Sequence record: NC_025447.1
Source of the DNA: Escherichia phage 121Q
Strand: one strand, 5' to 3'
Length of the DNA: 64,000 nt
The notes beneath the pieces were generated by a model that saw only the letters and a list, made by a program, of their open reading frames with translations, did no database searches and was not told the DNA's origin. Position numbers and translations under genes: made by a program. Below, piece after piece: positions 1-19,000 of this stretch. The stretch's first letter is position 1. Each line of letters begins with the position of its first letter.

Positions 1-3000
1 AGCACTATTAAGTGTTGAGCTACCAGAAATATTAGCACTAGAAGCAGTAATAGTTCCAGAATCAACTTGTATACCACCAGCAACAACCTGAATTCCACCA
101 GCATTAACTGTTAGTTTACCAGCAGTATTCAATGTATTTGAAACTGTTGTTGCACCAGTTAAAGTTGTAGTGCCAGTTACACCTAAGTTACCAGAAATAG
201 ATGGACTACCTGTAATGTTACCAGTAGTTAGTATCAAATCAGTACCTACGGTAGTGGAGCCAGTACTTTCTAGTGTTACACCGACGATGTTTGCAGAACT
301 TAGGTTAATAGTACCATCAACAGTTAAGTTACCTTGAACGGTTGCATCACCTAGAGAAGTTAATGTCTTCACAGACACATCAGTTGTGCTAAGATCAATA
401 ACACCCGCAGTTAGTGTTCCAGATACTGCTAAATTACCAGTAATCGCGGTATTTTTAGTAATGGATACATTTTCTGCCGCTGAAGTAATAGAACCAACAG
501 TAAGTACACCACCAACAGTTGCGTTATTAGTTACATTTAGAGCAGTTCCAACACCAGATAGTGTTGCTGACCCACCAGTAATTGCACCTGAGATTGAAGC
601 TGTTGCTGCTGAAACATCACCAGAAACTACTGCATTTGTTGCATTTAGAGCAGACACTGTAACTTCAGTACTTTGAACTTTAGGTAGAACGTTGATACCT
701 TCTGCACTACTAACTGTAATAATACCAGTACTTGTTAGAGATTTAACAGATACATCAGCACCACTTAAATCAACTGTACCAGAAACAACAAGATCTCCAC
801 CAATATTTGCTCCAGCGGTAGTAGTAATGGATTTTGCACTTACATCAGTTGTGCTCAAATCAATTGCACCTGGTGTTACTGTACCAGAAACTGTTAGGTC
901 ACCAGTAATAGATGTATTATTGGAAATAGATACACCATCAACGTTACTAATTGTTGGGGTTTCTACAGAAACTGCTTTAACTTTACCTGAAGAAGTTACG
1001 TCAGCTACGGTAGATGCACCAGTAACATTCAAATTAGTAATATTTGCAGTTGTTGAACCAAGGGTTGCAATAGTTGCATCAGTACTTTGAAGTTTAGGTA
1101 GAACACTACTAATTGTGGATTCATTACTAACAATTGCACCAGTACTAGTTAAAGATTTGACAGTAACATCAGCCGTAGTAAGATCTACTGTACCATTAAC
1201 AGTTAGGTTACCACCAATAGTTGCACCAGCAGTAGTAGTAATGGATTTAGCATTAACATCAGTTGTTGCTAGATCGATAGAGCCTGGAATAACTGCACCA
1301 GTAACAGTTAGGTCACCAGTTACATTTGTATTATTGGAAATAGTGACACCACTTGCATTTGAAATGGTTGGGGTAACCAACGATGCAGTTGTAGTTTCAC
1401 CAGTTACAGTTAAAGTTGACCCAACTAGAACAGATGAGCTTGAGTAAATTGTACCCAAATTAGCAGATCCGGTAACAGTTATATCATCAGCATTAACAGT
1501 AGTTGCCGTTATGGTAGTACTATTAAGTACTGGAAGTACGTTAGCATTAACAAGATCATTACTTTTAACAATACCAGAAGTAGTTAATGATTTAACATTA
1601 AGGTCGGCTGCTGATAAATCAAAAGAGCCTTGAACTACTAAATCACCACCAATAGTTGCACCAGCAGTAGTAGTGATTGATTTAGCATTAATATCGGTAG
1701 TGCTCAAGTCTAGAGAACCAACAGTTAAGCTACCAGTAATATCAACATTTTCTGTAAAGTTAGTATTACCACTAATAGTTGGTGCAGTCAGAGTTGTTGC
1801 ACTAATATTAGTACCGTTAATTGTTTGCCCACTTACAGTTCCACTCGCAGTGATAGTAGGGGCCGTTACTTCAGTAGATGCACTAATTGTTGGTGCAGAT
1901 ACAGAAGTTGTACCAGTAATAGAACCAGAACTTACTGAACCAGCGGATAATGCACCAGAAAGAGTTGCAGTTGTACCAGCAATATCACCAGTAACAGTTA
2001 GTTTAGCACCCACGGTAGTGTTACCAGTACTTTCAAGTGTTGCACCTTTAATATTTGCTGCCGCGACAACAGAATTAGGTGTTAGATCCTGCCCACTAAC
2101 ATCAACAGTTAGTCCAGTTACTGTTCCAGTAAATTCAACATCATTAAGAATTGCTTTACCACCAACTTGTAGGAATGGTGTACCTGGAGCTTGTGTTTCG
2201 TTACCAGTAATAGTTAGGTAATCTAGTTTGTTTAGACCGTTACCAGTAATACCATAAGTGGAAAGAGAAGCGTTACCGAAAGTTGCTGTTTTAAGAACGT
2301 TCAATGTAGAAGGAGAAACGACTTCTGATTGAACTTCGTTAGGTAGAATAACTGTTGGGCGTTGACCTGGTGCAGTATATCCAAAACCTAGTTTCACTGC
2401 CGCATCTTGACTATTTTGACCTAAGCTGATAGCTTTAAAGGATGCAGTACTGTTATAACCAGTAATATTAGAACCAAGAGTAACACCACCAACTAATGAA
2501 GTTACACCAGTAACGTTCAAAGATACTGCATTAATATCGTCTAGTTGGAACGTTCCACCAAGAAGACCAGAAACATTAATGTTATTAAAATTAGCAGTAC
2601 CAGTACTTTCGATATTTGGAATAGTTGCAGTTCCGGTTACTTCAAAGTCAGCAACTTTAGTTTTTCCTTTTTGAACTTCTAATAGTGGTGTGTCTGGTGA
2701 TTGTGTATTGTTACCAGAAACTGTTAGATAATCTAATTTGTTTAGACCATTACCAGTAATACCATAAGAAGATAATGACGCATTACCAAAAGAAGCAGAG
2801 GTCAATACTGTCAAGTTTGCAGGTGACATTAGCTCGGACTGAATTTCGTTTTGTAGAATAACAGTTGGGCGTTTACCAGGAGCAGTGTAAGGGAAGCTTA
2901 ATCTGAAGGTTTGTGATTCAGAGTTAGAACCAATACGAATGTCTTTAAAAGTAGCAGTACTGTTAATACCAGTTACGTTAGCACCGAAAGTTACTGCACC

Positions 3001-3612
3001 TTGTTGGTTAGATGCACCAGTAACGTTCAATGTTACTGCATTTAAGTCAGATAGATTAAACTCACCACCAAGTGTACCACTAATTGTCACATCGTTAAAT
3101 GTAGCAGTACCAGTACTACTAATATCTGTTGTACTTACATTAGTAATTTCTGCGGTATTAGCAGTAATTTTATCAAATGCAGCAGTAGTCCCAACATCAG
3201 CAGTAATATTACCTTTAAATGCTGTTGTTTCAGCAACTTCTAAGTTTTTAACTTTAGTTGCTTGTAGAGTGGTTGTACCAGCAGTTTGTGTAAAATCAGA
3301 ACCAACTGATACAGTACCGTTAAAGGTAGCGTTTGAATTAATTGTTGCTGTATCAGACCCGACAACTGCACTACCGATTGTAGTATTACCCTCAACACCA
3401 AGACCACCAGAAAGTGTTGCTTTGCCACCTACATCTAAAGTAGATGTAATGTTGGCAGTTGATGATTCAATGGCAGTAAAAGTTGCATTTGCAAAAGTTA
3501 CAGTACCATTTACAGTTAGGTTATTGTTGAAAACAGCATTTCCTTTGACTAAAAGATCCTTACCAACCGTACCAGCACCAGTAATATCTAAGTCAGTTTT
3601 TATTGAGTACAT
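1..3612 (-). CDS. Long tail fiber protein, partial (3' end lies beyond the window start); Gly/Thr/Ser/Asn-rich with internal tandem repeats
   Basis: Minus-strand ATG at 3610-3612 preceded by GGAGG; my translation begins MYSIKTDLDITGAGTVGKDLLVKGNAVFNNNLTVNGTV and stays open as far as I read. Absent from the ORF track, presumably because it has no stop inside the window. The plus-strand ORFs 386-3682 are its antisense frames. Confidence 0.6.
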   Translation of the reverse strand, partial: MYSIKTDLDITGAGTVGKDLLVKGNAVFNNNLTVNGTVTFANATFTAIESSTANITSTLDVGGKATLSGGLGVEGNTTIGSAVVGSDTATINSNATFNGTVSVGSDFTQTAGTTTLQATKVKNLEVAETTAFKGNITADVGTTAAFDKITANTAEITNVSTTDISSTGTATFNDVTISGTLGGEFNLSDLNAVTLNVTGASNQQGAVTFGANVTGINSTATFKDIRIGSNSESQTFRLSFPYTAPGKRPTVILQNEIQSELMSPANLTVLTSASFGNASLSSYGITGNGLNKLDYLTVSGNNTQSPDTPLLEVQKGKTKVADFEVTGTATIPNIESTGTANFNNINVSGLLGGTFQLDDINAVSLNVTGVTSLVGGVTLGSNITGYNSTASFKAISLGQNSQDAAVKLGFGYTAPGQRPTVILPNEVQSEVVSPSTLNVLKTATFGNASLSTYGITGNGLNKLDYLTITGNETQAPGTPFLQVGGKAILNDVEFTGTVTGLTVDVSGQDLTPNSVVAAANIKGATLESTGNTTVGAKLTVTGDIAGTTATLSGALSAGSVSSGSITGTTSVSAPTISASTEVTAPTITASGTVSGQTINGTNISATTLTAPTISGNTNFTENVDITGSLTVGSLDLSTTDINAKSITTTAGATIGGDLVVQGSFDLSAADLNVKSLTTSGIVKSNDLVNANVLPVLNSTTITATTVNADDITVTGSANLGTIYSSSSVLVGSTLTVTGETTTASLVTPTISNASGVTISNNTNVTGDLTVTGAVIPGSIDLATTDVNAKSITTTAGATIGGNLTVNGTVDLTTADVTVKSLTSTGAIVSNESTISSVLPKLQSTDATIATLGSTTANITNLNVTGASTVADVTSSGKVKAVSVETPTISNVDGVSISNNTSITGDLTVSGTVTPGAIDLSTTDVSAKSITTTAGANIGGDLVVSGTVDLSGADVSVKSLTSTGIITVSSAEGINVLPKVQSTEVTVSALNATNAVVSGDVSAATASISGAITGGSATLSGVGTALNVTNNATVGGVLTVGSITSAAENVSITKNTAITGNLAVSGTLTAGVIDLSTTDVSVKTLTSLGDATVQGNLTVDGTINLSSANIVGVTLESTGSTTVGTDLILTTGNITGSPSISGNLGVTGTTTLTGATTVSNTLNTAGKLTVNAGGIQVVAGGIQVDSGTITASSANISGSSTLNSA
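676..1800 (-). repeat. Three tandem copies of a ~400-bp coding repeat inside the long fiber gene
   Basis: Blocks starting near 676, 1088 and 1520 share long near-identical stretches (for example accagcggtagtagtaatggattttgcacttacatcagttgtgctcaaatc versus accagcagtagtagtaatggatttagcattaacatcagttgttgctagatc); boundaries approximate. Confidence 0.5.
2219..3210 (-). repeat. Two tandem copies of a ~480-bp coding repeat inside the long fiber gene
   Basis: Copy 1 about 2219-2700 and copy 2 about 2729-3210, both starting taatcta(g/a)tttgtttagacc...accagtaataccataag; encoded units share ...PGxRPTVILxNExQSExxSP...FGNASLSxYGITGNGLNKLDYLT.... Boundaries approximate. Confidence 0.5.
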
Positions 3613-3706
3613 TTATACCCTCCATTATAACCTTGTTAATATGTATATATTTAGTTTTATTATGCTGTTATCCAACAATTAATATGTTATTTGACAAAAG
3701 CAAATA

Positions 3707-3749
3707 TAATAAAAACCAGACTTATTTAGAACAAGTCTGGTTAATTTTT
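3707..3749. terminator. Bidirectional terminator hairpin between two fiber genes
   Basis: Stem CCAGACTT/AAGTCTGG (3716-3740) flanked by an A-run and a T-run. Confidence 0.55.
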
Positions 3750-4662: not shown

Positions 4663-6804
4663 TTATGGTAGGGTTATGTAAGTTACGGGTTGGGCAGCTT
4701 TTAATGCTGCACCAGCGGCAGTTGCTGTTATGATAGGATCTGCAATATCAATTCTATATACGTTGTTTACAACATACACTGCACGAGTTATATACGTTCT
4801 CAAATCACCACCATTTTCACCAGCACCGGATATAATGATCTCAGTACCAGCAGCTTTTGCATATTGGTTTTCACCCCATGACACACCCAATGCTTCTATG
4901 TATGTTTGTCCTGCTACCGTTTGTCTAATTGTGTCATATTTTCCGAAAAAAGAACCACCAACAGTTACAATATATTTTCCACCCGATTGTTTATGAATAA
5001 TCGTGCCTTCAGAGAAATAGCGTCCCCCAGGAAAAGTATCGTATGGAATATAATATTGCTCAACTACAGGTATCAGTACTGGGCCACGGTGACCTGTACC
5101 ATCGATTGCAGTTGTAACTTTAAAGTTATTAGATGATTGGTCTATTCTGTCTACATACATTTTAGAAAAACTATATTTTGAAACATTACAATCATCTTGA
5201 ACAACACAGTTAGTCCAATTAGTATAAGTATATTTAGAGCGAGTATAGATACCACCACCTTCGCCTTCGGTAGAGAGGTGTTGACCAATTACATCTAATT
5301 CTTTAGTTCTAATATCACTAAATTTAGATGATGATGGCAAACCACGCCAAAGGATTTTAGAACAAGTGATATTGCTCAATTCTGTATTATTTAACCAATT
5401 ATCAGAACCGGAAGTATAAACAAGTATAGAAGACTCTGGAATATAGAGATTAGAAATTTTAAAGTTTCTAGGTGGTCCAGCAAAACGACCAGAAGTTACA
5501 CCCCAGTTTATTGAAACCATTCTATTTGTGATAGAAGGATCATTAAGCAAATGACCAGTCAACCCATCAATAATGAATTCTTTCGAACCATAAGTTATAA
5601 CACCAGCAGTGGTTAATCCAGTACCAACAGAAACTAAAGATGATGGATAAACTTCATTATTAAGTATTTTAAAGTCCATTCCTAATTCAACGTGTATACA
5701 TTGTCTAACATTATATAGTCTGTTATTTTTAATAACAAAGTTTCTGACATATTGTGTATCTGGTGCATCTAAACCATAAGGACCAGAACCAGCAACGCCA
5801 ATACCAATGCCCCAGTTTGAAAGTGGGATTGGAGCGTTAGAACCATCAACGTTTTCAATTACGTTTCCTTCAATCACAAAACCATCAGGATAATGTGAGT
5901 TAATTACGTTTAGTTCAATTGCATCACCATAGATATCATGAATATGGTTATATGAATATCTACCAACCTTCATTTTCTCACCAGTACCTTGTTGAAGAAC
6001 ACCATACTTACATTGGGTCATTTCATTAAAGCAAAAATCTATTGTTCCTGGTTGTGTCATACCTTGCATTAAAAATGCAGCAGTACTTGTGATGTTTATA
6101 AATTTATTAAAATAAAACTTACCATCTCCACCGAAGAATTTTAAATAACATCCAGTAAGTGTTGCAAATTGTATTTGGGAATTAATAACAGATACCATAG
6201 TACCACCGTTACCAGTAATAGTTCCCCCAAACCAAGTTACATCTTCTAGGTATATTGCAGTTTTGATACGGTAATTACCACCAGCCTGAATTTGGATTTT
6301 ATTTTCTTTAGCATAAGCAGCACATAAATTTACAGCAGCAGTGTCATCAGTTTCGCCATCACCTTTAGCACCAAATTCTTCTGGTGTTATATAAAACTGG
6401 GCCTGTTGAACTGTACCTCCAGTAATAAGTCCGATGAAATCACCACCATTTTTACTGGATAGAACTTTTTTATTAATGTATAATGATTTTACCCATGTAC
6501 CATTACTTTTTGCAAAAATATCAACAATACCATCTTCATCAATTTGAAAATACGTATTATTGTTCTTTCCTACATCATCGGTAGGGGGTACAACACCAAA
6601 TAATGCATTAGGGTTATCTTCAAGATATTTTACGTTAACTGCTGAATTAGGGTCAGATGAAGTTCCTACCTTCAGTGGTAGGAACTGTTCTCCTAGATAA
6701 TCTTTTATAGAAACTGAATCATTGATAAAATTTATTGAAGCACCTTTTTTCCCCAATATGAATTTGGGCTGCATAGTTCCTTCAAAATTAGAAAATACTG
6801 CCAT
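4663..6804 (-). CDS. Tailspike-like protein with pectate-lyase-type beta-helix motif (putative polysaccharide depolymerase)
   Basis: 713 aa; shared N-terminus MAVFSNFEGTMQPKFILGKKGASI; GDGETDDTAAV motif (encoded 6340-6363) typical of pectate lyase 3 / tailspike beta-helix domains; GGGAGG ribosome-binding site. Confidence 0.6.
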   Translation of the reverse strand: MAVFSNFEGTMQPKFILGKKGASINFINDSVSIKDYLGEQFLPLKVGTSSDPNSAVNVKYLEDNPNALFGVVPPTDDVGKNNNTYFQIDEDGIVDIFAKSNGTWVKSLYINKKVLSSKNGGDFIGLITGGTVQQAQFYITPEEFGAKGDGETDDTAAVNLCAAYAKENKIQIQAGGNYRIKTAIYLEDVTWFGGTITGNGGTMVSVINSQIQFATLTGCYLKFFGGDGKFYFNKFINITSTAAFLMQGMTQPGTIDFCFNEMTQCKYGVLQQGTGEKMKVGRYSYNHIHDIYGDAIELNVINSHYPDGFVIEGNVIENVDGSNAPIPLSNWGIGIGVAGSGPYGLDAPDTQYVRNFVIKNNRLYNVRQCIHVELGMDFKILNNEVYPSSLVSVGTGLTTAGVITYGSKEFIIDGLTGHLLNDPSITNRMVSINWGVTSGRFAGPPRNFKISNLYIPESSILVYTSGSDNWLNNTELSNITCSKILWRGLPSSSKFSDIRTKELDVIGQHLSTEGEGGGIYTRSKYTYTNWTNCVVQDDCNVSKYSFSKMYVDRIDQSSNNFKVTTAIDGTGHRGPVLIPVVEQYYIPYDTFPGGRYFSEGTIIHKQSGGKYIVTVGGSFFGKYDTIRQTVAGQTYIEALGVSWGENQYAKAAGTEIIISGAGENGGDLRTYITRAVYVVNNVYRIDIADPIITATAAGAALKAAQPVTYITLP

Positions 6805-6818
6805 TATGACATCCTCCC

Positions 6819-7970
6819 TTAAATATTATCTTGAATCGGTTGGATAGGAGCTTGCCATGAAAGAGTACAAATAATTTCCATTTTTCCATAAGGACTGTTG
6901 TTAACAGAATCGTTGAATACACATGAAATAATTTCATCAACATCGGATGCTGCATGATTAGTTTCATTAACAATAAAACGCATCTGACGATTGATATCAA
7001 AGTAGGAAGTTGGTGCAATTACCGTCCCGCCAATATCTTCTTGTGCTTCACCACCAAAACGTACAAACATATCAGTTACTGGAAGAGAATAAGGTTGTAT
7101 AACGTTTACATCAATATTAGAAACTACATATCCAGCAGGACATGTACCAATAACTAATAGTGCGTTAGTCCATGAGCTATCTATGGTATTTCTAATAGAA
7201 ATTGTATCTTTACCTGGTGCACCTGGTTCGCCTTGTATACCTTGAATACCTTGCTGGCCTTCTTTACCACGGAATAGAATACCCTCACTCCACTCTTTTG
7301 AAGGAGGGGTAGTTGTAGTTACTTCATCAACATAATATAGTTTTCCATCAGTGTTGTTATAAAAACAATAATCAACTGGAAGATTTTCAATACTTGGAAA
7401 TTGATCACCACTGCTATCAATATGGAAACGACCACGCGGACCTTGTTCACCACGGAAAGGTATACCATCACTCCAAGTAGCAGTTACACTTTGATAGAAA
7501 TAAAGTTTACCATCTTGAGTATTATAAAATGTATAGTTATTAAAAAGACCAGTTGTTGGGAAAGTAGTTCCAGCACTATCAATGTGGAACGGCTTACCCG
7601 CTTCACCCGTATCACCTTTACCAAACTCAACACTAATCCATGTACTTGTCGGATCTTGTGCATCATTTGATTTAAAGTATAGAGTACTGGTATTGTTAGC
7701 CAAGCTTAAGTAGCACCACCCAAGTGGTTCACCAACTTTAAATTGTTCGGAAGGAATTTCAAAACCAATCTCATTAGGATAAAAGTTTTTACCATTCTCG
7801 CCATTCTGTCCTACAACAAGACCTAAATCTTGAATTGTGTTATCTGCATAGGTTACAATTAAATGCCCAGCACCATTAATAACTAGACTTTTGATGCCGG
7901 AGTTATTACATGAACCATTAAATGAAATTGTCATAATATTTCCCTTGTATGAGTTAATGTCATATACCAA
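6819..7970 (-). CDS. Tail fiber protein with collagen-like Gly-X-Y triplets
   Basis: 383 aa; GEQGPRGR and GKEGQQGIQGIQGEPGAPGKD collagen-like runs, each preceded by a duplicated ~60-aa unit (FHIDSAGTTFP... and FHIDSSGDQFP...). Confidence 0.5.
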   Translation of the reverse strand: MVYDINSYKGNIMTISFNGSCNNSGIKSLVINGAGHLIVTYADNTIQDLGLVVGQNGENGKNFYPNEIGFEIPSEQFKVGEPLGWCYLSLANNTSTLYFKSNDAQDPTSTWISVEFGKGDTGEAGKPFHIDSAGTTFPTTGLFNNYTFYNTQDGKLYFYQSVTATWSDGIPFRGEQGPRGRFHIDSSGDQFPSIENLPVDYCFYNNTDGKLYYVDEVTTTTPPSKEWSEGILFRGKEGQQGIQGIQGEPGAPGKDTISIRNTIDSSWTNALLVIGTCPAGYVVSNIDVNVIQPYSLPVTDMFVRFGGEAQEDIGGTVIAPTSYFDINRQMRFIVNETNHAASDVDEIISCVFNDSVNNSPYGKMEIICTLSWQAPIQPIQDNI

Positions 7971-8044
7971 TATTTATCAGTACAAAATACATTTCGTTAT
8001 CATTAATAAATAAATGAAAGTTCACTACTAAAAGGGCTTAAACA

Positions 8045-8542
8045 ATGGCATTAAGATCAAAAGACTTTCTCTTCAGAAGAAAAACAAAAGATGGTTCATG
8101 GCAAGATTTTCCTGAATCTGATAGCTGGTATCCAGCTAACTTGGATTATCACTGGAATGAACAAACGTTACCACTAGCAAGTGGTGGCTACTATGGCTGT
8201 ACTACAGGTTTACATACGATTTCATTTACACTACGTAATTTTATTGGTAGAATTTATGTGTTAGCTACATTAGCTAGTAATCCTACTGATGATGATTGGT
8301 TTCCAATTAAATTCACTGAAAGTTGTAATTATTATCTTGAATTTACTGATATGGTTATTTTAAATCCAAATGGTGGGGATTTAATTAGACAACAAGGAAC
8401 TACCGGAACATTTGCTGAAACAGTAACTGGTAATTTTACTTACCTTAAAGTTGGTATAGACCGTGATTATATTAGTAAGTATCCATCAGATGTCCAAAAA
8501 AGTTTAGCTGGGAAGTTAGAACAAATTTTAATTAACTACTAA
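8045..8542 (+). CDS. Hypothetical protein (first gene of plus-strand island)
   Basis: 165-aa ORF with AAGGG ribosome-binding site; no recognisable motif. Confidence 0.4.
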   Translation: MALRSKDFLFRRKTKDGSWQDFPESDSWYPANLDYHWNEQTLPLASGGYYGCTTGLHTISFTLRNFIGRIYVLATLASNPTDDDWFPIKFTESCNYYLEFTDMVILNPNGGDLIRQQGTTGTFAETVTGNFTYLKVGIDRDYISKYPSDVQKSLAGKLEQILINY

Positions 8543-8551
8543 GGATTAGAA

Positions 8552-9160
8552 ATGAAATTAGAAACAGAACAACCAAAACTATTTGTTAAAGGTCATGTCC
8601 TAATTACTGACGTTACTGATCCATCAAATCAAAAAATCGTTTTAGATAAATCTAACGCTATTCACCCTGAAAATATGAGTACTGCCATTGCTAATGCGTT
8701 AGCATATAATCAAGACAGTACTGGTATTCCTATTGGTTCTATTAGCGAGATGCGTTTTGGTAATGGTGGTACAGTAGTTTTAAGTACTGGGCGTGTTACT
8801 TATAAAAAACCACGTGTTACATCATTTGGTGGTTTGTATTCACAAACATATTTGAAAAAAATCAACCCAAGAATTACGGCTGGTATCGATTCACAATATA
8901 ATAATATTACGACTGTTCATATACCAGGTCAGTCCTATACTGATATTGTATGTATTTGTACTTTAGGCTTAGGTGAACCATCAGATCAAGGTGTGAGTTC
9001 AGGGACAAGCATGGACGGAACATATGTGTTTGATGAATTGGGATTATACACCGATGGTGATAGTGGTATTCCTTTAACACATATTATTTTCCACCCAGTT
9101 GAAAAAAGTGCAAACCGTGTTTTGCAAATTAAATACACTGTGCGTGTACAACTACAATAA
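8552..9160 (+). CDS. Hypothetical protein
   Basis: 202-aa ORF tightly packed after the previous gene; GGA ribosome-binding site. Confidence 0.4.
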   Translation: MKLETEQPKLFVKGHVLITDVTDPSNQKIVLDKSNAIHPENMSTAIANALAYNQDSTGIPIGSISEMRFGNGGTVVLSTGRVTYKKPRVTSFGGLYSQTYLKKINPRITAGIDSQYNNITTVHIPGQSYTDIVCICTLGLGEPSDQGVSSGTSMDGTYVFDELGLYTDGDSGIPLTHIIFHPVEKSANRVLQIKYTVRVQLQ

Positions 9161-9172
9161 TGGGGTCATATA

Positions 9173-10273
9173 ATGAGTGTTAACTATACAATTTATCGAA
9201 GTAATGGTAGTGTTTATGCTACCATTCCAAATAACGTTATTTTAGGTCCAAATCAGCCAGGTAGTAACCCAGTTCCATTAAATTTAGTTGGTAGAAACAA
9301 AGTAAGTTATGGTCAAGCATGGAATGAAAACTTTTTACATTTAGTTGAAAACTTCAGTTCAGCTTCAGCACCACGTGGTAACGTAAATGGTCAACTTTGG
9401 TATCGAAATACTGGAAGTACTGGTGAGTTATTAATATCATTAGTGGATAATGCTAGACAACCAGCAGATATGGTAAGTGAAGCGGAATGGGCTTCTATTC
9501 CAATGATAACCGTATTCAACACTGTACCAGATGGTGAAAACAGTGTTATGGGTCGTATGGTATTAACCAGCAATGGTGATTCACTTCGTGTTTTGATGAA
9601 AAACAAAGAATGGCGTGAAATTCAAACATCTCGACCAGAAAACAAAGAATATACATCATTATTAGATATTAACTATGATAATGGAAAAAAATACATAGAG
9701 TTTACACAAAGTAACAGTACTAAACCAATTGCGTATTTTAACTTAGGCGGTACTTCACAAGTAGATACAAATAACTGGACAACATTAACTAATGGTACTG
9801 GTGTATTTGAATTTGGTAGCAACTATTTCTATGAATTAAAAATTATGATTAGAGAAGTAAATGATTCTTCTGGTGAGATAGTTTCTCTTCCATATAATTC
9901 AAAAACCTTTTTTATAAAAGGGCAATTCTATGTAGATAATCAAGGAACTTTTGTTCCTGGTTCGGTTGGGGCAAGTCAAATGCCAGACCCACGTAGGATT
10001 ACACAATTAGAATCCATAAAAGATGTTATTACCAGTAGTCGCCCAAACTGGGACGTAAATATTGTTATTAATGGTGTAGATCCATCTATCCCAAATCCTA
10101 ATGGAACATCTAAAGCTGATTATGAAAATTGGGTTATCAATTCTCTAAACTCAAATAAAAATTTAGGTTTTCGAGTTGATGGTAGCATTAGTAATCTAAC
10201 TGCTGGTGAATCCGTTAAACTACAAGCATCCGTGTTGTTAAATATTACAGGTATTCCGATTATTGGAGTATAA
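9173..10273 (+). CDS. Hypothetical protein, possibly fiber or baseplate associated
   Basis: 366-aa ORF, Asn/Ser/Thr/Gly-rich like the neighbouring fiber proteins; followed by a terminator hairpin. Confidence 0.4.
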   Translation: MSVNYTIYRSNGSVYATIPNNVILGPNQPGSNPVPLNLVGRNKVSYGQAWNENFLHLVENFSSASAPRGNVNGQLWYRNTGSTGELLISLVDNARQPADMVSEAEWASIPMITVFNTVPDGENSVMGRMVLTSNGDSLRVLMKNKEWREIQTSRPENKEYTSLLDINYDNGKKYIEFTQSNSTKPIAYFNLGGTSQVDTNNWTTLTNGTGVFEFGSNYFYELKIMIREVNDSSGEIVSLPYNSKTFFIKGQFYVDNQGTFVPGSVGASQMPDPRRITQLESIKDVITSSRPNWDVNIVINGVDPSIPNPNGTSKADYENWVINSLNSNKNLGFRVDGSISNLTAGESVKLQASVLLNITGIPIIGV

Positions 10274-10304
10274 AAAAAGGAGCCATGTGGCTCCTTTTTG
10301 TTTT
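10272..10304. terminator. Bidirectional rho-independent terminator
   Basis: A-run, stem GGAGCC/GGCTCC (10279-10294), T-run; sits between convergent genes. Confidence 0.6.
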
Positions 10305-10767
10305 AATATCTATATGGTAAACTGTTGACAAACTGTGTACCTTCACGTATACTTTCCCATAGTGAGTAAAAATCTTTCATTAAGTTTGTGTTAAGTAAAG
10401 TATTTTTAGCACCAGGGTGTAATGGTTTAGGCCAAGAACCAATTCTAACCCAAGCATAACCAGAGCTTTCATGATTTAAAGTTGGTACAAATTCATTCTC
10501 AACTACAATAACAAATGAATAATATTTAAATTTACCATTTTTTGTACAAAATACATCAAACGGTATAATATCAATAATGTTAGGTATTGAGTTGCCCAAC
10601 TCTTCTTTAATTTCTCGCATCAGACCTTGTAGTGGTGTTTCGTTATGTTCAAGCTTTCCACCAACAAATGCCCAGTTGTTAGAATAGGTACTTCTTTCAG
10701 AACGCAAGTTTAACATCATATGTCCAGTACTTTTTGATAAAAATATAGCACCAACCGCTTCATTCAT
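10303..10767 (-). CDS. Nudix hydrolase
   Basis: 154 aa; perfect Nudix box GGKLEHNETPLQGLMREIKEELG (G-x5-E-x7-REUxEExGU). Confidence 0.8.
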   Translation of the reverse strand: MNEAVGAIFLSKSTGHMMLNLRSERSTYSNNWAFVGGKLEHNETPLQGLMREIKEELGNSIPNIIDIIPFDVFCTKNGKFKYYSFVIVVENEFVPTLNHESSGYAWVRIGSWPKPLHPGAKNTLLNTNLMKDFYSLWESIREGTQFVNSLPYRY

Positions 10768-10780
10768 AACAACACCTCCT

Positions 10781-12124
10781 TTATTTGTCAGTGAAAGTTA
10801 TTTTCCAATATCCCTGACGATACACAGGCATGATACTTTTATGCCATTTAAATTTGTCATTATATCTATAATAACCATTGTCTTCTTTATTATAAATGTA
10901 ATTTCGTACAGTAGATGGATCAATTAATTGTGCACCATCATTTGTAATTTTAAACAAATAATTTGATGGGATTTCGGTTTCTTTATAAATGATGTTATGT
11001 ATACTGTTATTTACATAATATTGTTCAGGTAATGCACTTGAAAGTACTGAATCTTTCTGCACAAACCCATGTATAGTGTAATCAACAGTATAATTGGTAT
11101 TATCAAGCTGTACTATAATTTTGTTGGCATCTTCATTTTCACCATACGACGCTATATGACCTTTTAGTGGGTTGTCTTCTTCAATAGATTGTTGAAATTT
11201 AATCCCTACTTTTTTGTCATCAAAATTTGGTTCTAGATATTTAAGATATTTTTCCCATGAATATATTCCACCGTTGGGAGAAACCGCAGATAGCGATTGG
11301 CTAACCAAGGTAAGTTGGTATGTATCAGGTAAATTATACTTGGAATTAGTAATTTCTTCAACTTTAATGCATAAATTCTTGGGTGTAAAAACATCTGTTA
11401 TTATATCTGAATAATTTCCCATTTCAAAATCAAATTCGTCACGAGCACCTTTAATATTTGTAGTAATCTGTTGGATTAATTTTGGTTTTTCAACAATAGC
11501 TGGTAAAGAAAACCATATTGTCGTTTCAAATGTTAAAACCATTATATCCAAATCTGGGTCAGTTCCTTGTGGAAAACCACGAGTAGAAAACTGACAATCT
11601 ATTAGTTCAACATCACTAAGCGATGTCCAATCTAACGGGTTATCAGATAATTGAAGTTGTATACTAGGTGCAAACAAAGTTGAGATTTGTTCGAATAATT
11701 CCATTTTAGTTTGAGTTTGAGTTACCCAAATATTCAAATCAAACGTAAAAGTCCAAGGTACTGGGTTATGTCTTACAATTTTGTATTGTGTGTCAAGATC
11801 TTTTGTGTACTCATTAATAGCAGGGGACTTGTTAGACCCCATTACTATAGTTTCGTTGGCATTAGAACGAATATTTTTACGATCCAACTTTAGTTGATTA
11901 ACACTTATGGTCATTATAGGTGCTGATGGGAGAACATTTTCACTATTCCCATTTATAATTGCTGCTGCCATTCTTGAAATATCGGCATAGCGACATGGAA
12001 CCTTTTTGTATTTTGGGTTTCCATTAGCATCAATACCATTTTGTACTTGAAATTCACCAAAAACTCTGATAAGATGTTTCAGTACTCTGCGAAATTGACC
12101 GTCATAATAATAATCTATTTTCAT
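10781..12124 (-). CDS. Hypothetical protein, likely structural
   Basis: 447-aa ORF; 4-nt overlap with the upstream gene suggests translational coupling. Confidence 0.4.
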   Translation of the reverse strand: MKIDYYYDGQFRRVLKHLIRVFGEFQVQNGIDANGNPKYKKVPCRYADISRMAAAIINGNSENVLPSAPIMTISVNQLKLDRKNIRSNANETIVMGSNKSPAINEYTKDLDTQYKIVRHNPVPWTFTFDLNIWVTQTQTKMELFEQISTLFAPSIQLQLSDNPLDWTSLSDVELIDCQFSTRGFPQGTDPDLDIMVLTFETTIWFSLPAIVEKPKLIQQITTNIKGARDEFDFEMGNYSDIITDVFTPKNLCIKVEEITNSKYNLPDTYQLTLVSQSLSAVSPNGGIYSWEKYLKYLEPNFDDKKVGIKFQQSIEEDNPLKGHIASYGENEDANKIIVQLDNTNYTVDYTIHGFVQKDSVLSSALPEQYYVNNSIHNIIYKETEIPSNYLFKITNDGAQLIDPSTVRNYIYNKEDNGYYRYNDKFKWHKSIMPVYRQGYWKITFTDK

Positions 12125-13614
12125 TCTGTGTCCTTATGTATGCGATAAACAGTATTAGGTTTAACTGCGTCATGTAATGGAACTTTGTTATCACTATTTA
12201 CAAACTGTGTAAGTGCTAAGTCTGCACCTTCCCACGGTTTTCTTCCACCATAATCAAAAATAACCCATGAATTCTTAGTTGCATTGAATTCCCATAACGT
12301 AACTGGAGTATAATCGGTGCGATAGAAATAGTCACCATCTACTGCATCAGTTGGGAACATATTTCCTTCAGGGACTGTACCTCGTGCTGGTGGAATTTTA
12401 GGACGATAATCTTGTTGCGAATCAATATTACCATATACACAATTGGACGTGAATGGTTCATTGACATAAGTTACCTTTGGTTCCCCCCACTTGTCATCAT
12501 TATACTGATAAATGTGTGGTTCTTTATAAAAAATACAAAAATCTTCCACATCTTCTGGTGGAACATCACTGGTAGTATATTCTACATCACAATTTAACCA
12601 TTTTTTAGCACTTTTATCATATTGATACAACGTATAACCTGTCACATCTGCGTCATTTTCTTTAAAGAAGAAGTCACCATCCATTGGTTTTCTGGGAAAG
12701 ATGGTTCCACGCTTGACTTCCACAGAAATCCATGTATCATTAACAAACTCTTTGAGTACTGGGTATGTTTTTTTCAAAAAATACATTCCATCGGCAGGTT
12801 CTTCTGGAAAATCATAACCGTTAAGCATATATTTTGATAAATCTACTGTATCAGGTCGATCATCATACAAATGTTCATTTGTATAATGAATATAGGGTAC
12901 TTCATCATCAGCTTGCATGATGATACGGTTCATGATATCCATTTCATTGCCATAGTTACTGTTTTCCGACGAACCATCATCGGTATTTCCATTACCATTA
13001 TTAGGGTCATCTGGATTATCAGGATAATTATTGTTACCGAGTAAATCGGAGTACTCAGGTGAGTCGGTTAGCGGTTTAACTCTAAGTTTATAAATGTGAT
13101 GTTGCCACGTAACCGAGTATCCCTCAGATGTACGAAATGCATCTTGGACGACATAGAAGCGGTTTAGACCTGTATCTTTACCCAATACATCAAAATCACG
13201 TAAATTTGGTAGTTCTATCACATCCCCTGGCATGATTTTTCTACCTAAACGCTGCATCATTGTATTATAATGGATTGTGATGTCCATAGTGTTGAAATTA
13301 AAGAACAATCCTGGGATTTTCAAGTCTGGAGTTGCTTCTTGAACTTGATAGACACAACTAAGTGTGATAGCTTCAAGGTTGTAGTTTCTGTTTGGTGTGT
13401 CACCAAAAATTAAATCGCCAATACTTGACACAACTGATCCTGAAGATGTATAATCACCTCCATAGGATAAGTCAGTGTTGTCAGCAACTTGTTTTGGACC
13501 GACATATGCATAAAGCCACATGTCAACTCCACCAATGTTGTATTGTTCAGCAATGGCAGAATCAATGAACTTGTAATCATTGGTTCTACCTTTTTTCCAC
13601 ATTCTATATGTCAT
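12121..13614 (-). CDS. Hypothetical protein with low-complexity Asn/Asp/Gly/Pro segment
   Basis: ORF track starts at a TTG (13626); I prefer the ATG at 13612-13614, which has GGAGA 5 nt upstream. Contains PDNPDDPNNGNGNTDDGSSENSNYGN. Confidence 0.4.
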   Translation of the reverse strand: MTYRMWKKGRTNDYKFIDSAIAEQYNIGGVDMWLYAYVGPKQVADNTDLSYGGDYTSSGSVVSSIGDLIFGDTPNRNYNLEAITLSCVYQVQEATPDLKIPGLFFNFNTMDITIHYNTMMQRLGRKIMPGDVIELPNLRDFDVLGKDTGLNRFYVVQDAFRTSEGYSVTWQHHIYKLRVKPLTDSPEYSDLLGNNNYPDNPDDPNNGNGNTDDGSSENSNYGNEMDIMNRIIMQADDEVPYIHYTNEHLYDDRPDTVDLSKYMLNGYDFPEEPADGMYFLKKTYPVLKEFVNDTWISVEVKRGTIFPRKPMDGDFFFKENDADVTGYTLYQYDKSAKKWLNCDVEYTTSDVPPEDVEDFCIFYKEPHIYQYNDDKWGEPKVTYVNEPFTSNCVYGNIDSQQDYRPKIPPARGTVPEGNMFPTDAVDGDYFYRTDYTPVTLWEFNATKNSWVIFDYGGRKPWEGADLALTQFVNSDNKVPLHDAVKPNTVYRIHKDTE

Positions 13615-16050: not shown

Positions 16051-19000
16051 TTACTTAACTAATAATATATTTTTAATATCATTACCACTAACTTGTAGAC
16101 TATCAGTGTATACTGAAAGATCTATAGTGTAACTATTTTGTGTGTAACGTTTTAACATATCATAATTACCTAAATTAATTCCATTGAAAGAATATGTAGT
16201 ATTAAGTTTAAAATCATGTTCTGCACTATACATTACACCACGGAGTAAATTATTTGCATTTCTAACTTCAACTTTTTCATATCCAATCGATATAATATCA
16301 TTCATGTTTGCGGCTGAACCGGATAAAACATTATTTCTAATACTATAAGGACTTATTGATTTAGGTTGAGAAACATAGGTTGTATTTTCTTCACTAATGG
16401 TTGTGATGTTAGTAACAGTACCACCAACAACACCGATATACATACCGTCAACCATTGGGAATCCATAAACCCATATCCCTTCATTATTTCTAAACGGTTG
16501 AATAACACTTGAATCATATTCGATAACGTTGATTTCTAAACTATCAGTCATTTTAGTTCTTGCCAATTCACTAAGAACTCCCGCACCCGTAATTGGTAAG
16601 TTATAACCGTTATCGATAGTAATTCCATCAACATCAAATATTTCATTAGAGATTATCCAAACGTCAACGTCATCTGGTGTTATTCCGTCATTGTACTTAC
16701 CACCATTTAAAGTAGTATCGTAGAAAACATCATAATTAATTACATCAATGGTGTAATTTCTATTTTGTTCATACAATTTAATACCATTCTTGACAAATTC
16801 AGGGTCAGCAAATGTTCTAACACGAACAATGTTCAATGCTAGAGGCTGTACTGGCTCATTTTGTTGTGCAAGAGTGATGTTATCATAACGGAGAACTGCA
16901 CCAGTACTCTCATCAATCAATTCAATCGTTTCCTTACCTGTATTTCTTACAGTGAATAGGATCGGAGTTGTATTGTTTTTGATGTTAGATACACGCAAGA
17001 TTGTTTCCCATGTGTGATTTTGATATCTCACAAAATCTTCACCATCAGGAGTGAAAATCATCACCTTATCACCATCAGATAGGTCATTGTCAACTATTTC
17101 TGCTTCAGTTAAGCTATTAATAGATCTCACACGATAGAAATATTTTTCATCAAACTTCGATGTTGTTTTATTAATATCATTTTCAATCTTAGCATATGAA
17201 GGAATACTTACAATTGCTTCTGTATGTTTATATGGATTGATAATTGCCATACCTTCAGTTTGATATCTGCTGTTATCACGTAATTGTACAAGAGATACAT
17301 TGTCAAACCCATATCCATCAACTGTAAATCTAATTTGACCTACATCACGCCCAGAAGGGTTTATGTCAGATATATCCACAATATAAGGATCAACTTCATC
17401 ATCTTTAACTTCCCATTTTATTGAAGAAGTTTGAGATTCCAATGCTAGGTTATCAAATGCATTCATATCATTGAAGTACTTAGCTTCAGTAATACTATCA
17501 AGTATATATTGATAATCAGAATACATTGGATTATTTTGATCTAGTGGTAAATCATCAAGATTTATTTCAGCTAGTTCAACCATTTCACCATTTGTGATAA
17601 AATAATCTTCCATGAAATCATCAATACTTTGTTCATCAGGTATACTTTGATATACACCGTTAACATTTAAGTAAACATATTTTCGTGGAATCATTGTAAT
17701 TGCATAGATATCAATTGGGGTCTTACTAAGAATCTCTTCAGCTTTTTCGTACTTATCAGTAGCGTCTTTGTCGAATAACCCTCTCATACCTGCTAATACG
17801 TGAATAGCATCAGTATAGAAACGGGTATCACCACCTACTTCATCATAACGATAAACATATACACCATACTCAACTTCAAGTTTAACTTTTACTTCATAGT
17901 CTGATGCGTCAGGATTTTTATCTTTAATTAATGAAATGTATTTTTGATACAATTCACTGCTTATTTCAAAATATCCATAGTTATAATCATTACTAGAAGA
18001 AAAGCCTAATGGAAGTCTAGTACTAGGATTGTCATTATAAGTAAGTCCACTAAATCCACATCCAACTTCATCGTGAATTTTCTCATCACTTATATCTTTA
18101 TAAAGTTTCAAACGGTTTGCCAATGTGTTATACTGAACATATTGTCTAAGGTCAGTAAACATATCGTTATGCGTTGATTCTTTATAAACACGTTCCAATG
18201 TAGCAGTGAATTCATCAGTTGCTTCTAAATCTTCCGCATGGTCTTTATACCACTGGTTAACGCCATATGCTGTTCCTAGTGTTACATCCAATTCTGGATA
18301 GTAGATTTGCATTTGATAAGCAATAAGAAGATCGAAAGTTTCTTCACTATATTCTGGGAAAGAATATATATAACGTTGTAATTCATAGTTACTAACAGCA
18401 TCCTTTTCATTGGATTGATATTTGTTATTAACACTTACTAATTCATTTATGCTTGCCAAATCTTCATTTGGTTTACACTGAATATTATCATAATGCATAA
18501 TAATATCAATTTCTTGGAATCTTCTATTTGGTGTAACGAAATCACTTGGTAGTGAACCTACCTGTTCCCATTTTTGGGTAATTTCATTAAATTGAGCGTA
18601 CTCATAATCCCAAATATCTTTTTCAGTTTTGATCCAAGAACCGTCAACGAAAATATATCCATTAGGATCTAAATCATTACATAGACCTTTTATTAAATCA
18701 TCATCAGATGTCTTTTGCTCTATTTGTGAACGAATTTTAGTTCTATAAGGTTTAACTTCTTCAAAATATTCAACAATTTGATTAATCAAATTATCGTTTG
18801 AATAGTTTTGAACTAATGATTGTTCCAAACCAACAATATAGATATATGATGTTTTAAATACCCAATCCACAACACTTTGTTCAACATGTACATATTTGAC
18901 CATATCAAAAACAATTTCGCTTTGATGTAAATCGAAAGAATTTTTGAGTAAAGCTAGTGCTTTACGAACGTTGATTTCACGATTGCTTAGTGATCCATTA

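What the first reader, a model, noticed from the sequence alone, without database searches (positions are those of the whole stretch)
676..3210. Large in-frame tandem duplications inside the long tail fiber gene
Two repeat families, about 400 bp in three copies and about 480 bp in two copies, each 70-85 percent identical at DNA level by eye, build the fiber shaft. Such repeats can change fiber length by recombination and may cause assembly errors in short-read data.
Basis: seen in the sequence. Interest (0 to 1): 0.45.

Follow-up and report, generated by a model that had tools for sequence, protein, structure and literature searches.

The report
Repeated modules in jumbo-phage tail fibre
A giant E. 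coli phage's 180-kDa tail-fibre gene is built partly from old, in-frame, head-to-tail copies of two protein modules, and relatives show the copy number has changed by unequal recombination; this is real but an ordinary way for phage fibres to evolve.

Summary
The window's first 3,612 bases are the N-terminal 1,204 codons of a minus-strand gene that runs off the left edge. It is 100% identical to Asteriusvirus jumbo phages (SHEFM2K, G17), where the full gene encodes 1,841 aa. This is phAPEC6 gp256, a 180.38-kDa protein found in virions by mass spectrometry.

It holds two unrelated tandem, in-frame repeat families:
- Unit B: 2 x 510 bp (window 2098-3117).
- Unit A: 435, 414 and 465 bp (427-1740), plus a degenerate fourth copy (from 426 leftward) and more beyond the window.

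Off-diagonal DNA alignments score 211 and 176 bits, against at most 37 in 100 codon-shuffled controls.

Corrections: the copies are old (dS about 1) and 57-67% identical over whole units, not 70-85%. The longest shared exact run is 30 nt, so short-read misassembly is unlikely.

The recombination idea is supported. JP4 and CRJP21 carry a third B unit that is a B2/B1 hybrid, with the switch at the longest B1/B2 identity. Turkey5 gained a B unit independently. UB and JP4 have a 92%-identical 112-aa duplication. More distant genera have one B unit.

The "T4 gp34-like proximal subunit" label fails: there is no similarity. This is an ordinary member of a known kind, of low to moderate interest.

The parts
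1..3612 (-). N-terminal 1,204 codons of the 1,841-aa tail-fibre gene (ortholog of phAPEC6 gp256 and SHEFM2K M2K_0545). The gene runs off the left edge of the window.
   Evidence: Single open frame 1-3612 on the minus strand. 100% identical to L001:9001-12612, where the full CDS is 7087-12612. Calculated mass is 180.38 kDa, equal to gp256 in the phAPEC6 virion proteome.
3610..3623 (-). Start codon ATG (3612-3610) preceded by a GGAGGG Shine-Dalgarno sequence (3623-3618).
   Evidence: Sequence read.
3714..3742 (-). Terminator-like hairpin (13-bp stem plus T run) after the upstream gene and about 100 nt before the fibre gene start.
   Evidence: This is a consensus scan only.
3118..3612 (-). N-terminal region, aa 1-165, preceding the repeats.
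   Evidence: Not homologous to the phiTE_241 N-terminal anchor (hhalign probability 0.1%). In most family members with a full B unit, the first B module begins at about residue 160-200.
2608..3117 (-). Repeat unit B1 (aa 166-335, 510 bp).
   Evidence: HMM domain E 3e-104. B1 versus B2: 60.9% aa, 67.3% nt, dS 0.96, dN/dS 0.32.
2098..2607 (-). Repeat unit B2 (aa 336-505, 510 bp).
   Evidence: HMM domain E 5e-101. Homologous to phiTE_241 residues 182-333 (profile E 2e-11).
1741..2097 (-). Linker region between the two arrays (aa 506-624), with short 5- and 11-aa periodicity.
1306..1740 (-). Repeat unit A1 (aa 625-769, 435 bp).
   Evidence: HMM E 2e-70. 47-55% aa and 57-62% nt identity to A2 and A3.
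892..1305 (-). Repeat unit A2 (aa 770-907, 414 bp).
   Evidence: HMM E 6e-58. Shares a 30-nt exact run with A1.
427..891 (-). Repeat unit A3 (aa 908-1062, 465 bp).
   Evidence: HMM E 3e-64.
1..426 (-). Degenerate unit A4. Its first 60 aa (aa 1063-1122, window 247-426) are clearly A-like. The rest is weakly A-like and is cut by the window edge.
   Evidence: HMM E 4e-13 for aa 1063-1122. Full-length A4 is detected in the orthologs ph0011, UE-S1, UB and JP4.

Best explanation
The region is the N-terminal two-thirds of a 1,841-aa virion fibre protein of an Asteriusvirus (Rak2/121Q-like) E. coli jumbo phage. Much of the protein consists of two unrelated modules that were duplicated in tandem and in frame long ago.

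- Module B is 170 aa and present twice.
- Module A is 138-155 aa. It is present as three good copies followed by increasingly degenerate ones.

Each copy is kept under purifying selection. The most likely role of each copy is one structural segment of an extended, probably trimeric and beta-helix-rich fibre. Under that reading, the number of units sets the fibre's length and reach.

Copy number changes occasionally by unequal homologous recombination between neighbouring units. The crossover happens at the short stretches where the units remain nearly identical. The result is alleles that differ by whole units.

Shown here: the repeats, their age, the selection on them, the copy-number differences among relatives and the hybrid junction unit. 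Inferred: the fold, the trimeric state and the effect on fibre length or function.
For: Repeats well above chance:
- 211 and 176 bits against at most 37 bits in codon-shuffled controls.
- Protein diagonal scores of 133-172 against at most 60 in shuffles.

Old duplications under constraint:
- dS is 0.8-1.1 and dN/dS is 0.32-0.48 for B1/B2 and A1-A3.
- A1 through A5 group by position across the Asteriusvirus species, so these duplications predate their divergence.

The protein is in the virion:
- The calculated mass of 180.38 kDa equals phAPEC6 gp256, detected by virion mass spectrometry.
- The syntenic orthologs CBB_226 and fENko-Kae01 ENKO_255c were also detected by mass spectrometry.
- The gene sits among baseplate, sheath and other virion genes.

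Whole-unit copy-number variation:
- B occurs once in Yen9-04 and Serratia BF, twice in most relatives, and three times in JP4, CRJP21 and Turkey5_b. Within Asteriusvirus each step is exactly 170 aa. JP4 equals UB plus 170 aa.
- JP4's middle unit matches UB_B2 at 83-100% over its first ~330 nt (98-100% over nt 1-180). It matches B1 at 90-95% over its last ~180 nt.
- The switch lies at about nt 330-350. That is where B1 and B2 share their longest exact run, 19 nt at unit position 349.
- CRJP21, an independent isolate differing from JP4 by 35 nt in this gene, has the same allele.
- UB and JP4 carry a 112-aa insertion that is 92% identical to the adjacent 112 aa.

Family-wide pattern:
- Members of 479-1,175 aa have one B unit. 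Among full-length members, two or three B units occur only in those of about 1,400-2,120 aa.

Fibre character:
- PHROG 4549 'tail fiber' matches at E 9e-227.
- The C-terminus (E 5e-13) and the B module (E 2e-11) are homologous to phiTE_241. phiTE_241 is the only chain of PDB entry 9CUY matched here.
- If phiTE_241 is the long tail fibre of that paper, which I assumed, it is a trimer predicted by its authors to form a highly extended beta-helix (PMC11972413).
Against: - No reliable 3D model was obtained. The AF2 monomer of unit B has pLDDT 55. The model of unit A has pLDDT 72, and only residues 1-60 are confident.
- The trimeric state and the link between unit number and fibre length are untested.
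- Total protein length correlates only moderately with the counted units (r = 0.58), because the degenerate A-like units are counted imprecisely.
- At 57-67% identity, recombination between the present-day copies must be rare. Ten near-identical isolates show no variation in the window portion.
Confidence: 0.8

Rival explanations
1. The repeated units, especially B, are not passive shaft spacers. They would be ligand-binding or enzymatic domains, duplicated to raise avidity or to widen receptor specificity, as in the T4 gp37 adhesin duplications.
For: - Unit B has a well-conserved core with invariant residues (F75, Y77, R83-P84, D129-Y130, G135-N136). This looks more like a small globular domain than a simple beta-helix turn.
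- dN/dS of 0.32 shows constraint.
- The module is kept in most family members with a full copy at about the same position, residues ~160-200.
- The neighbouring gene is a colanic-acid-degradation (depolymerase-like) protein, so the locus is concerned with host-surface recognition.
Against: - No Pfam or NCBIfam domain of binding or catalytic type was found.
- The B module lies near the N-terminus, whereas receptor-binding tips are usually C-terminal.
- The C-terminal ~100 aa is the part shared with many other fibres, which would suit a tip or assembly domain.
- The unit B structure model is unusable.
Confidence: 0.15
2. The apparent repeats are compositional. The protein is rich in T, G, S, V and A, and generic beta-helix motifs could mimic repeats without any true duplication.
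For: - The protein is 19% Thr, 12% Gly, 11% Ser and 10% Val.
- Many short, weak matches are scattered over the whole gene (families D4-D18).
Against: - Codon-shuffled controls that keep the composition give at most 37 bits and 63 bp, against 211 bits and 632 bp observed.
- The alignments keep register over 138-170 aa at 47-61% identity.
- Units are conserved position by position across phages.
Confidence: 0.02
3. The copy number in this window or in relatives is an assembly artefact caused by collapse or expansion of repeats in short-read assemblies.
For: - Repeats of 400-500 bp can in principle mislead assemblers.
- The PBECO4 record shows three odd small CDSs over this gene.
Against: - The longest exact run shared by any two copies is 30 nt, and whole-unit identity is 57-67%. 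Reads of 100 nt or more are therefore unambiguous.
- Ten independent records match at 99% identity or more in one colinear piece.
- The PBECO4 oddity comes from antisense ORF calls in a record that was linearised inside the gene. It is not misassembly.
- JP4 and CRJP21, independent isolates, share the three-unit allele. Its middle unit carries its own substitutions.
Confidence: 0.02

Closest known systems
phAPEC6 gp256, SHEFM2K M2K_0545 and SP27 EO157G_5450 (Asteriusvirus 'tail fiber protein')
   Same: This is the same gene: 100% or 99.6% DNA identity over the 3,612 bases. The calculated mass is the same, 180.38 kDa. The synteny is the same: virion protein, fibre, two virion or hypothetical genes, then thymidylate synthase.
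   Different: Nothing differs in sequence. The internal repeat architecture is not mentioned in the papers I read.
Pectobacterium phage phiTE_241, the 793-aa 'putative tail fiber protein' of PDB 9CUY/9MJN
   Same: The C-terminal ~180 aa are homologous (E 5e-13). One B-type module is homologous (profile E 2e-11). Both belong to a small family of 39 cluster representatives among 1.84 billion proteins. The phiTE paper describes its long tail fibre as a trimer predicted to form a highly extended beta-helix. I assumed that fibre is this chain.
   Different: phiTE has one B module and no clear A array. Its N-terminal baseplate anchor, the only part resolved by cryo-EM, is not homologous to aa 1-165 here (hhalign probability 0.1%). 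The jumbo-phage protein is 2.3 times longer.
T4 gene 37 adhesin duplications (Tetart et al. 1996, J Mol Biol; title found in the text of 45 library papers), and repeated motifs in T-even fibre genes in general
   Same: In-frame tandem duplication of a fibre segment arises by recombination between short homologies and yields heritable length variants of a tail fibre.
   Different: There is no sequence relationship (gp37 E 0.14, gp34 E 1.8). The T4 duplications are small, recent, laboratory-selected and located at the receptor-binding tip. Those here are 138-170 aa, mostly ancient, and lie in the N-terminal and middle parts. No phenotype is known.
Beta-solenoid proteins: bactofilin (PF04519) and autotransporter passenger domains

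Membership tests
Tail-fibre gene with in-frame tandem module duplications evolving by unequal crossing-over | Head-to-tail copies with periods that are multiples of three, inside one ORF | tested here: met
   Periods are 510, 435, 414 and 465 bp within a single 1,204-codon open frame.
Tail-fibre gene with in-frame tandem module duplications evolving by unequal crossing-over | Similarity between copies beyond what composition alone gives | tested here: met
   211 and 176 bits against at most 37 bits in 100 codon shuffles. Protein diagonal scores of 133-172 against at most 60.
Tail-fibre gene with in-frame tandem module duplications evolving by unequal crossing-over | Relatives differ by whole units | tested here: met
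   B occurs once, twice or three times; within Asteriusvirus each unit is exactly 170 aa. JP4 equals UB plus 170 aa. UB and JP4 carry an extra 112-aa tandem copy.
Tail-fibre gene with in-frame tandem module duplications evolving by unequal crossing-over | A hybrid junction unit with the crossover in a stretch of high identity | tested here: met
   JP4's middle unit is B2-like at the 5' end and B1-like at the 3' end. The switch is at about nt 330-350, where the longest B1/B2 exact run (19 nt at position 349) lies.
Tail-fibre gene with in-frame tandem module duplications evolving by unequal crossing-over | Copy number alters fibre length or host range | not testable with these tools
   This needs electron microscopy measurements or host-range assays of alleles with two and three units.
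T4 gp34 'long tail fiber proximal subunit' (the label used in the SP27, UB, ph0011 and CBB records) | Sequence homology to T4 gp34 | tested here: not met
   BLASTP best E is 1.8 against gp34 and 0.14 against gp37. No NCBIfam or Pfam fibre family matches.
T4 gp34 'long tail fiber proximal subunit' (the label used in the SP27, UB, ph0011 and CBB records) | Adjacent hinge and distal half-fibre genes (gp35, gp36, gp37 equivalents) | not tested
   The neighbours are annotated only as virion structural or hypothetical proteins. I did not compare them with gp35-37.
phiTE_241 / PHROG 4549 fibre family | Match to the family profile | tested here: met
   phrog_4549 'tail fiber protein' matches at E 8.9e-227.
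phiTE_241 / PHROG 4549 fibre family | Shared C-terminal domain and B-type module | tested here: met
   C-terminus E 4.7e-13. B module profile E 2e-11.
phiTE_241 / PHROG 4549 fibre family | Homologous N-terminal baseplate anchor (the 'rip-cord' helical bundle plus globular domain) | tested here: not met
   hhalign of N-terminal profiles gives probability 0.1% and E 0.59.
phiTE_241 / PHROG 4549 fibre family | Trimeric extended beta-helix | tested here: inconclusive
Virion structural protein | Detected in purified particles | tested here: met
   Literature and record annotations, not my own experiment. phAPEC6 gp256 was seen with 15 peptides. CBB_226 was seen with 10 peptides. ENKO_255c is marked 'identified with LC-MS/MS'.
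Bactofilin (PF04519) | Score above the Pfam gathering threshold | tested here: not met
   15.2 bits against a cutoff of 27.9.

The most novel reading that the evidence does not exclude
This gene may encode not the six short baseplate fibres but the long 'hairy' whisker filaments seen on the tails and capsids of phAPEC6 and CBB. No gene has been assigned to those filaments. The repeat copy number would then set the hair length.

Basis:
- In CBB the baseplate fibres measure 28.6 nm and the whiskers 119 +/- 10 nm (PMC5259590).
- An extended trimeric fibre rises roughly 0.55-0.68 A per residue. That range is my own estimate from T4 gp34/gp37 dimensions and from the 512 A predicted for the phiTE fibre, assuming that fibre is the 793-aa chain.
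- At that rise, the fibre would be about 85-105 nm for CBB_226 (1,553 aa) and about 100-125 nm for this 1,841-aa protein. That is far longer than 28.6 nm.
- The N-terminus is not homologous to a known baseplate anchor.
Probability: 0.15. Interest if true: 0.55.

Novelty: new member of a known kind. Interest (0 to 1): 0.22.

Why it matters
Mostly it matters for annotation and for phage engineering.

- It gives exact module boundaries for a 180-kDa fibre of therapeutic-candidate jumbo coliphages.
- It shows that the 'gp34-like proximal subunit' label is unfounded.
- It documents natural alleles with one, two or three B modules, and maps a crossover junction. These alleles are ready-made material for testing how fibre length affects adsorption.
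- It removes the worry that the repeats compromise short-read assemblies.
- If the protein turns out to be the unassigned 'hair' filament of these phages, the unit-number alleles would offer a direct handle on that structure.

Tried and rejected
- Tandem Repeats Finder found neither array, because the copies are too diverged.
- A whole-protein BLASTP self-search returned only the identity hit. I replaced it with a diagonal scan and HMMs.
- The search for homologous proteins with unit B returned only two fragments, a limit of its word index. The exhaustive profile search was used instead.
- Pfam and NCBIfam gave no meaningful domain.
- Families A and B are not related to each other (hhalign probability 5%).
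- T4 gp34 and gp37 homology was rejected.
- Homology of the N-terminus to the phiTE baseplate anchor was rejected.
- The 'second place' reported per record in the megablast output is not explained by a second gene. tblastn finds a single place in SHEFM2K, and no other open frame in the window matches either unit HMM. I read it as copies matching one another.
- The fragmented PBECO4 annotation is not misassembly. It consists of antisense ORF calls in a record linearised within the gene.
Full report
**What is at the coordinates**

ORF listing on the plus strand gives only short fragments. The minus strand is open from 3612 down to base 1. It has an ATG at 3612-3610 and a GGAGGG ribosome-binding site just upstream. 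The gene therefore lies on the minus strand and is cut by the left edge of the window.

The 3,612 bases are 100% identical to Escherichia phages SHEFM2K, vB_EcoM_G17, Sharanji and E9.1, and show only a few mismatches to phAPEC6. These are Asteriusvirus jumbo myophages of about 350 kb, in the Rak2/121Q group. In SHEFM2K the complete CDS is 5,526 bp, encoding 1,841 aa (L001:7087-12612). The window holds the N-terminal 1,204 codons.

The calculated mass is 180.38 kDa. This equals the mass listed for phAPEC6 gp256 'tail fiber protein', which was detected by mass spectrometry in purified virions. That gene lies three genes before thymidylate synthase gp259c, matching the synteny here (PMC7247149).

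**The observation**

Two tandem repeat families are present.
- A BLOSUM62 diagonal scan of the full protein gives 40-aa window scores of 172 (offset 170 aa), 165 (138 aa), 152 (145 aa) and 133 (155 aa). Ten shuffles reach at most 60.
- At the DNA level the best off-diagonal alignments are 632 bp at 68.7% identity (211 bits) and 448 bp at 69.0% (176 bits).
- 100 codon-shuffled genes, which keep composition and codon usage, give at most 37 bits and 63 bp.

Iterated HMMs define the units in protein coordinates:

| Unit | aa | Window |
|---|---|---|
| B1 | 166-335 | 2608-3117 |
| B2 | 336-505 | 2098-2607 |
| A1 | 625-769 | 1306-1740 |
| A2 | 770-907 | 892-1305 |
| A3 | 908-1062 | 427-891 |
| A4, clear part | 1063-1122 | 247-426 |

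More diverged A-like copies lie at aa 1214-1345 and 1354-1400, outside the window. All periods are multiples of three. Families A and B are unrelated to each other (hhalign probability 5%). Unit A also contains an internal sub-repeat of 30-35 aa.

The unit sizes (414-465 and 510 bp), the extent (247-3117) and above all the identity need correction. Whole-unit identity is 57-64% nt for A and 67% nt for B. Only the conserved cores reach 73-77%.

**Age and constraint**

- Between copies dS is 0.8-1.1, close to saturation. dN/dS is 0.32 for B1/B2 and 0.42-0.48 for A1-A3.
- In neighbour-joining trees of units from 11-12 fibre proteins, A1, A2, A3, A4 and A5 each group with their positional counterparts across the Asteriusvirus species. 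B1 and B2 do the same.
- These duplications therefore predate the divergence of those phages and have been inherited stably.

**Copy number does change**

Syntenic orthologs range from 1,490 to 2,129 aa.

- **Unit B counts.** It occurs once in Yersinia phage fHe-Yen9-04 and Serratia phage BF. It occurs twice in most phages. It occurs three times in JP4, CRJP21 and Turkey5_b. Within Asteriusvirus each step is exactly 170 aa. A global alignment shows that JP4 equals UB plus 170 aa.
- **The JP4 hybrid unit.**
  - Its first ~330 nt are B2-type: 98-100% identical to UB_B2 over nt 1-180 and 83-95% further on.
  - Its last ~180 nt are B1-type, at 90-95% identity.
  - At sites that distinguish B1 from B2, the pattern switches once, at about nt 330-350.
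  - That is where B1 and B2 share their longest exact run: 19 nt at unit position 349, encoding the conserved YGITGN motif.
  - This is the expected product of unequal crossing-over between B2 of one genome and B1 of another.
  - CRJP21, an independent isolate differing from JP4 by 35 nt in this gene, has the same allele. The allele is therefore real and inherited.
- **Turkey5_b.** Its extra unit is an 84%-identical copy of B1, which marks a separate and older event.
- **UB and JP4.** Both carry a 112-aa insertion that is 92% identical, in aa and nt, to the following 112 aa. This is a recent tandem duplication in the C-terminal A-like region, outside the window.
- **Family-wide pattern.** An exhaustive profile search found only 39 cluster representatives carrying a B module among 1.84 billion proteins. 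Members of 479-1,175 aa have one B unit. Among full-length members, two or three occur only in those of about 1,400-2,120 aa. In most members with a full unit, the first B unit starts at about residue 160-200.

**Recombination and assembly claims**

The recombination idea is supported by these natural alleles. Such events must be rare now, however. No two copies share more than 30 identical nucleotides in a row. Ten independent records match the 3,612 bases at 99% identity or more in a single colinear piece.

For the same reasons short reads map unambiguously, so the assembly concern is not supported. The three odd CDSs in the PBECO4 record are antisense ORFs called in a record that was linearised inside the real gene. 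They are the same spurious plus-strand ORFs that appear in the window.

**What the protein is**

- PHROG 4549 'tail fiber protein' matches at E 9e-227. Pfam gives only a sub-threshold bactofilin hit in unit A1 (15.2 bits against 27.9). NCBIfam gives nothing.
- The only PDB relative by sequence is chain g of 9CUY/9MJN, the 793-aa phiTE_241 protein.
  - It shares the C-terminal ~180 aa (E 5e-13) and one B-type module (profile E 2e-11).
  - The phiTE authors describe their long tail fibre as a trimer predicted to continue as a highly extended beta-helix (PMC11972413). I assumed that fibre is this chain; the paper text I read did not state the chain length.
- tblastn shows that the C-terminal ~100 aa also occur in fibres of rV5-like, PVP-SE1-like, GAP31-like and Phapecoctavirus phages. 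The protein is therefore a mosaic of exchangeable modules.
- The N-terminal 165 aa are not homologous to the baseplate-binding N-terminus of phiTE_241 (hhalign probability 0.1%).
- There is no similarity to T4 gp34 (E 1.8) or gp37 (E 0.14). The 'long tail fiber proximal subunit' label in several records is unsupported, and the point of attachment on the virion is unknown.

**Structure**

AF2 monomer predictions used the unit alignments as the MSA.
- Unit B gave pLDDT 55, which is unusable.
- Unit A gave pLDDT 72, with residues 1-60 at 83-95.

This is a hint consistent with a beta-helical fibre. It is not proof. A trimer prediction or cryo-EM is needed.

**Mechanism proposed**

Each A or B unit most likely forms one segment of an extended, probably trimeric fibre. 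Adding or losing a unit would change the length by roughly 8-12 nm. That figure is my own estimate, from about 0.55-0.68 A per residue in T4 and phiTE fibres. Units are gained or lost by unequal homologous recombination at the residual identity islands. Most copies are ancient and individually constrained.

The main rival reading is that unit B is a conserved small binding domain rather than a spacer. Its invariant core allows this. No known binding or catalytic domain was detected.

**Comparison with what is known, and novelty**

In-frame duplications in tail-fibre genes are a classic phenomenon. The standard example is the T4 gene 37 duplications that expand host range (Tetart et al. 1996, whose title appears in the text of 45 library papers). 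The phAPEC6 paper relays Hua et al.'s proposal that jumbo phage genomes expanded by tandem duplication of pre-existing genes. The gene itself is annotated and its product proteomically verified.

The papers I read on phAPEC6, JP4, fEgEco12 and CBB do not describe its internal repeat architecture or the unit-number alleles. That is new detail of a known kind. It is not a new kind.

**A speculative reading not excluded**

In CBB the six baseplate fibres are only 28.6 nm long, while the unexplained tail 'whiskers' are 119 +/- 10 nm. The syntenic ortholog CBB_226 is 1,553 aa. Proteins of this size, if extended, would be about 85-125 nm long.

This fibre could therefore be the unassigned hair filament rather than a baseplate fibre. 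Against this reading, the gene sits in the baseplate and tail gene cluster. GAP32, which was not reported to have whiskers, also has a homolog. I put this reading at about 15%.

**Verdict**

The feature is ordinary, and interest is low to moderate (0.22).

Noticed in passing
window 1634-2218 and 2891-3679, plus strand: Long stop-free antisense frames (195 and 263 codons) run opposite the fibre gene. They are probably a by-product of its T/G/V/S-rich codon usage. The equivalent ORFs are annotated as 'hypothetical proteins' in the PBECO4 record, which never calls the real gene because the record is linearised inside it.
   Followed up: yes
L009 1076-11880 (WPEC5); L010 3501-14888 (Turkey5): Some Asteriusvirus relatives carry two adjacent paralogous fibre genes (1,644 + 1,906 aa; 1,628 + 2,120 aa) where this phage has one. 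This is a whole-gene tandem duplication on top of the internal ones. Both paralogs contain both B and A arrays.
   Followed up: partly
L001 7087-7400 (C-terminal ~100 aa of the gene, outside the window): The C-terminal ~100 aa are shared at 35-44% identity with tail fibres of many unrelated myophage groups: rV5-like, phiTE, PVP-SE1, GAP31, Phapecoctavirus and Cronobacter phages. This suggests a mobile tip or assembly module.
   Followed up: partly
window 3714-3742, minus strand: A terminator-like hairpin (13-bp stem plus T run) lies between the upstream virion-protein gene and the fibre gene. This suggests the fibre gene has its own promoter in the ~100-nt gap.
   Followed up: no
window 4663-6804, minus strand; L013 8691-9296 (JP4): The neighbouring 713-aa 'colanic acid degradation' (depolymerase-like) gene is annotated as only 606 bp in JP4. 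JP4 is the same phage that gained a third B unit, so the locus seems to be generally plastic.
   Followed up: no
window about 16062-26033, minus strand (SHEFM2K M2K_0532): A 9,972-bp gene for a ~3,323-aa 'virion structural protein' sits next to the baseplate wedge genes (phAPEC6 gp245, 382 kDa, seen by mass spectrometry). Its function is unknown.
   Followed up: no
window 1231-1260 and 1666-1695 (units A2 and A1): A1 and A2 share a 30-nt exact run (ACTACTACTGCTGGTGCAACTATTGGTGGT, encoding TTTAGATIGG) in a background of about 62% identity. It could be a small gene-conversion tract or a site of very strong constraint.
   Followed up: no
L019 8274-12935 (CBB_226); literature PMC5259590: CBB's baseplate fibres are 28.6 nm and its unassigned tail 'whiskers' are 119 nm. 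The ortholog of this gene is 1,553 aa, which seems too long for the short fibres if extended. It is a possible candidate for the whiskers.
   Followed up: partly
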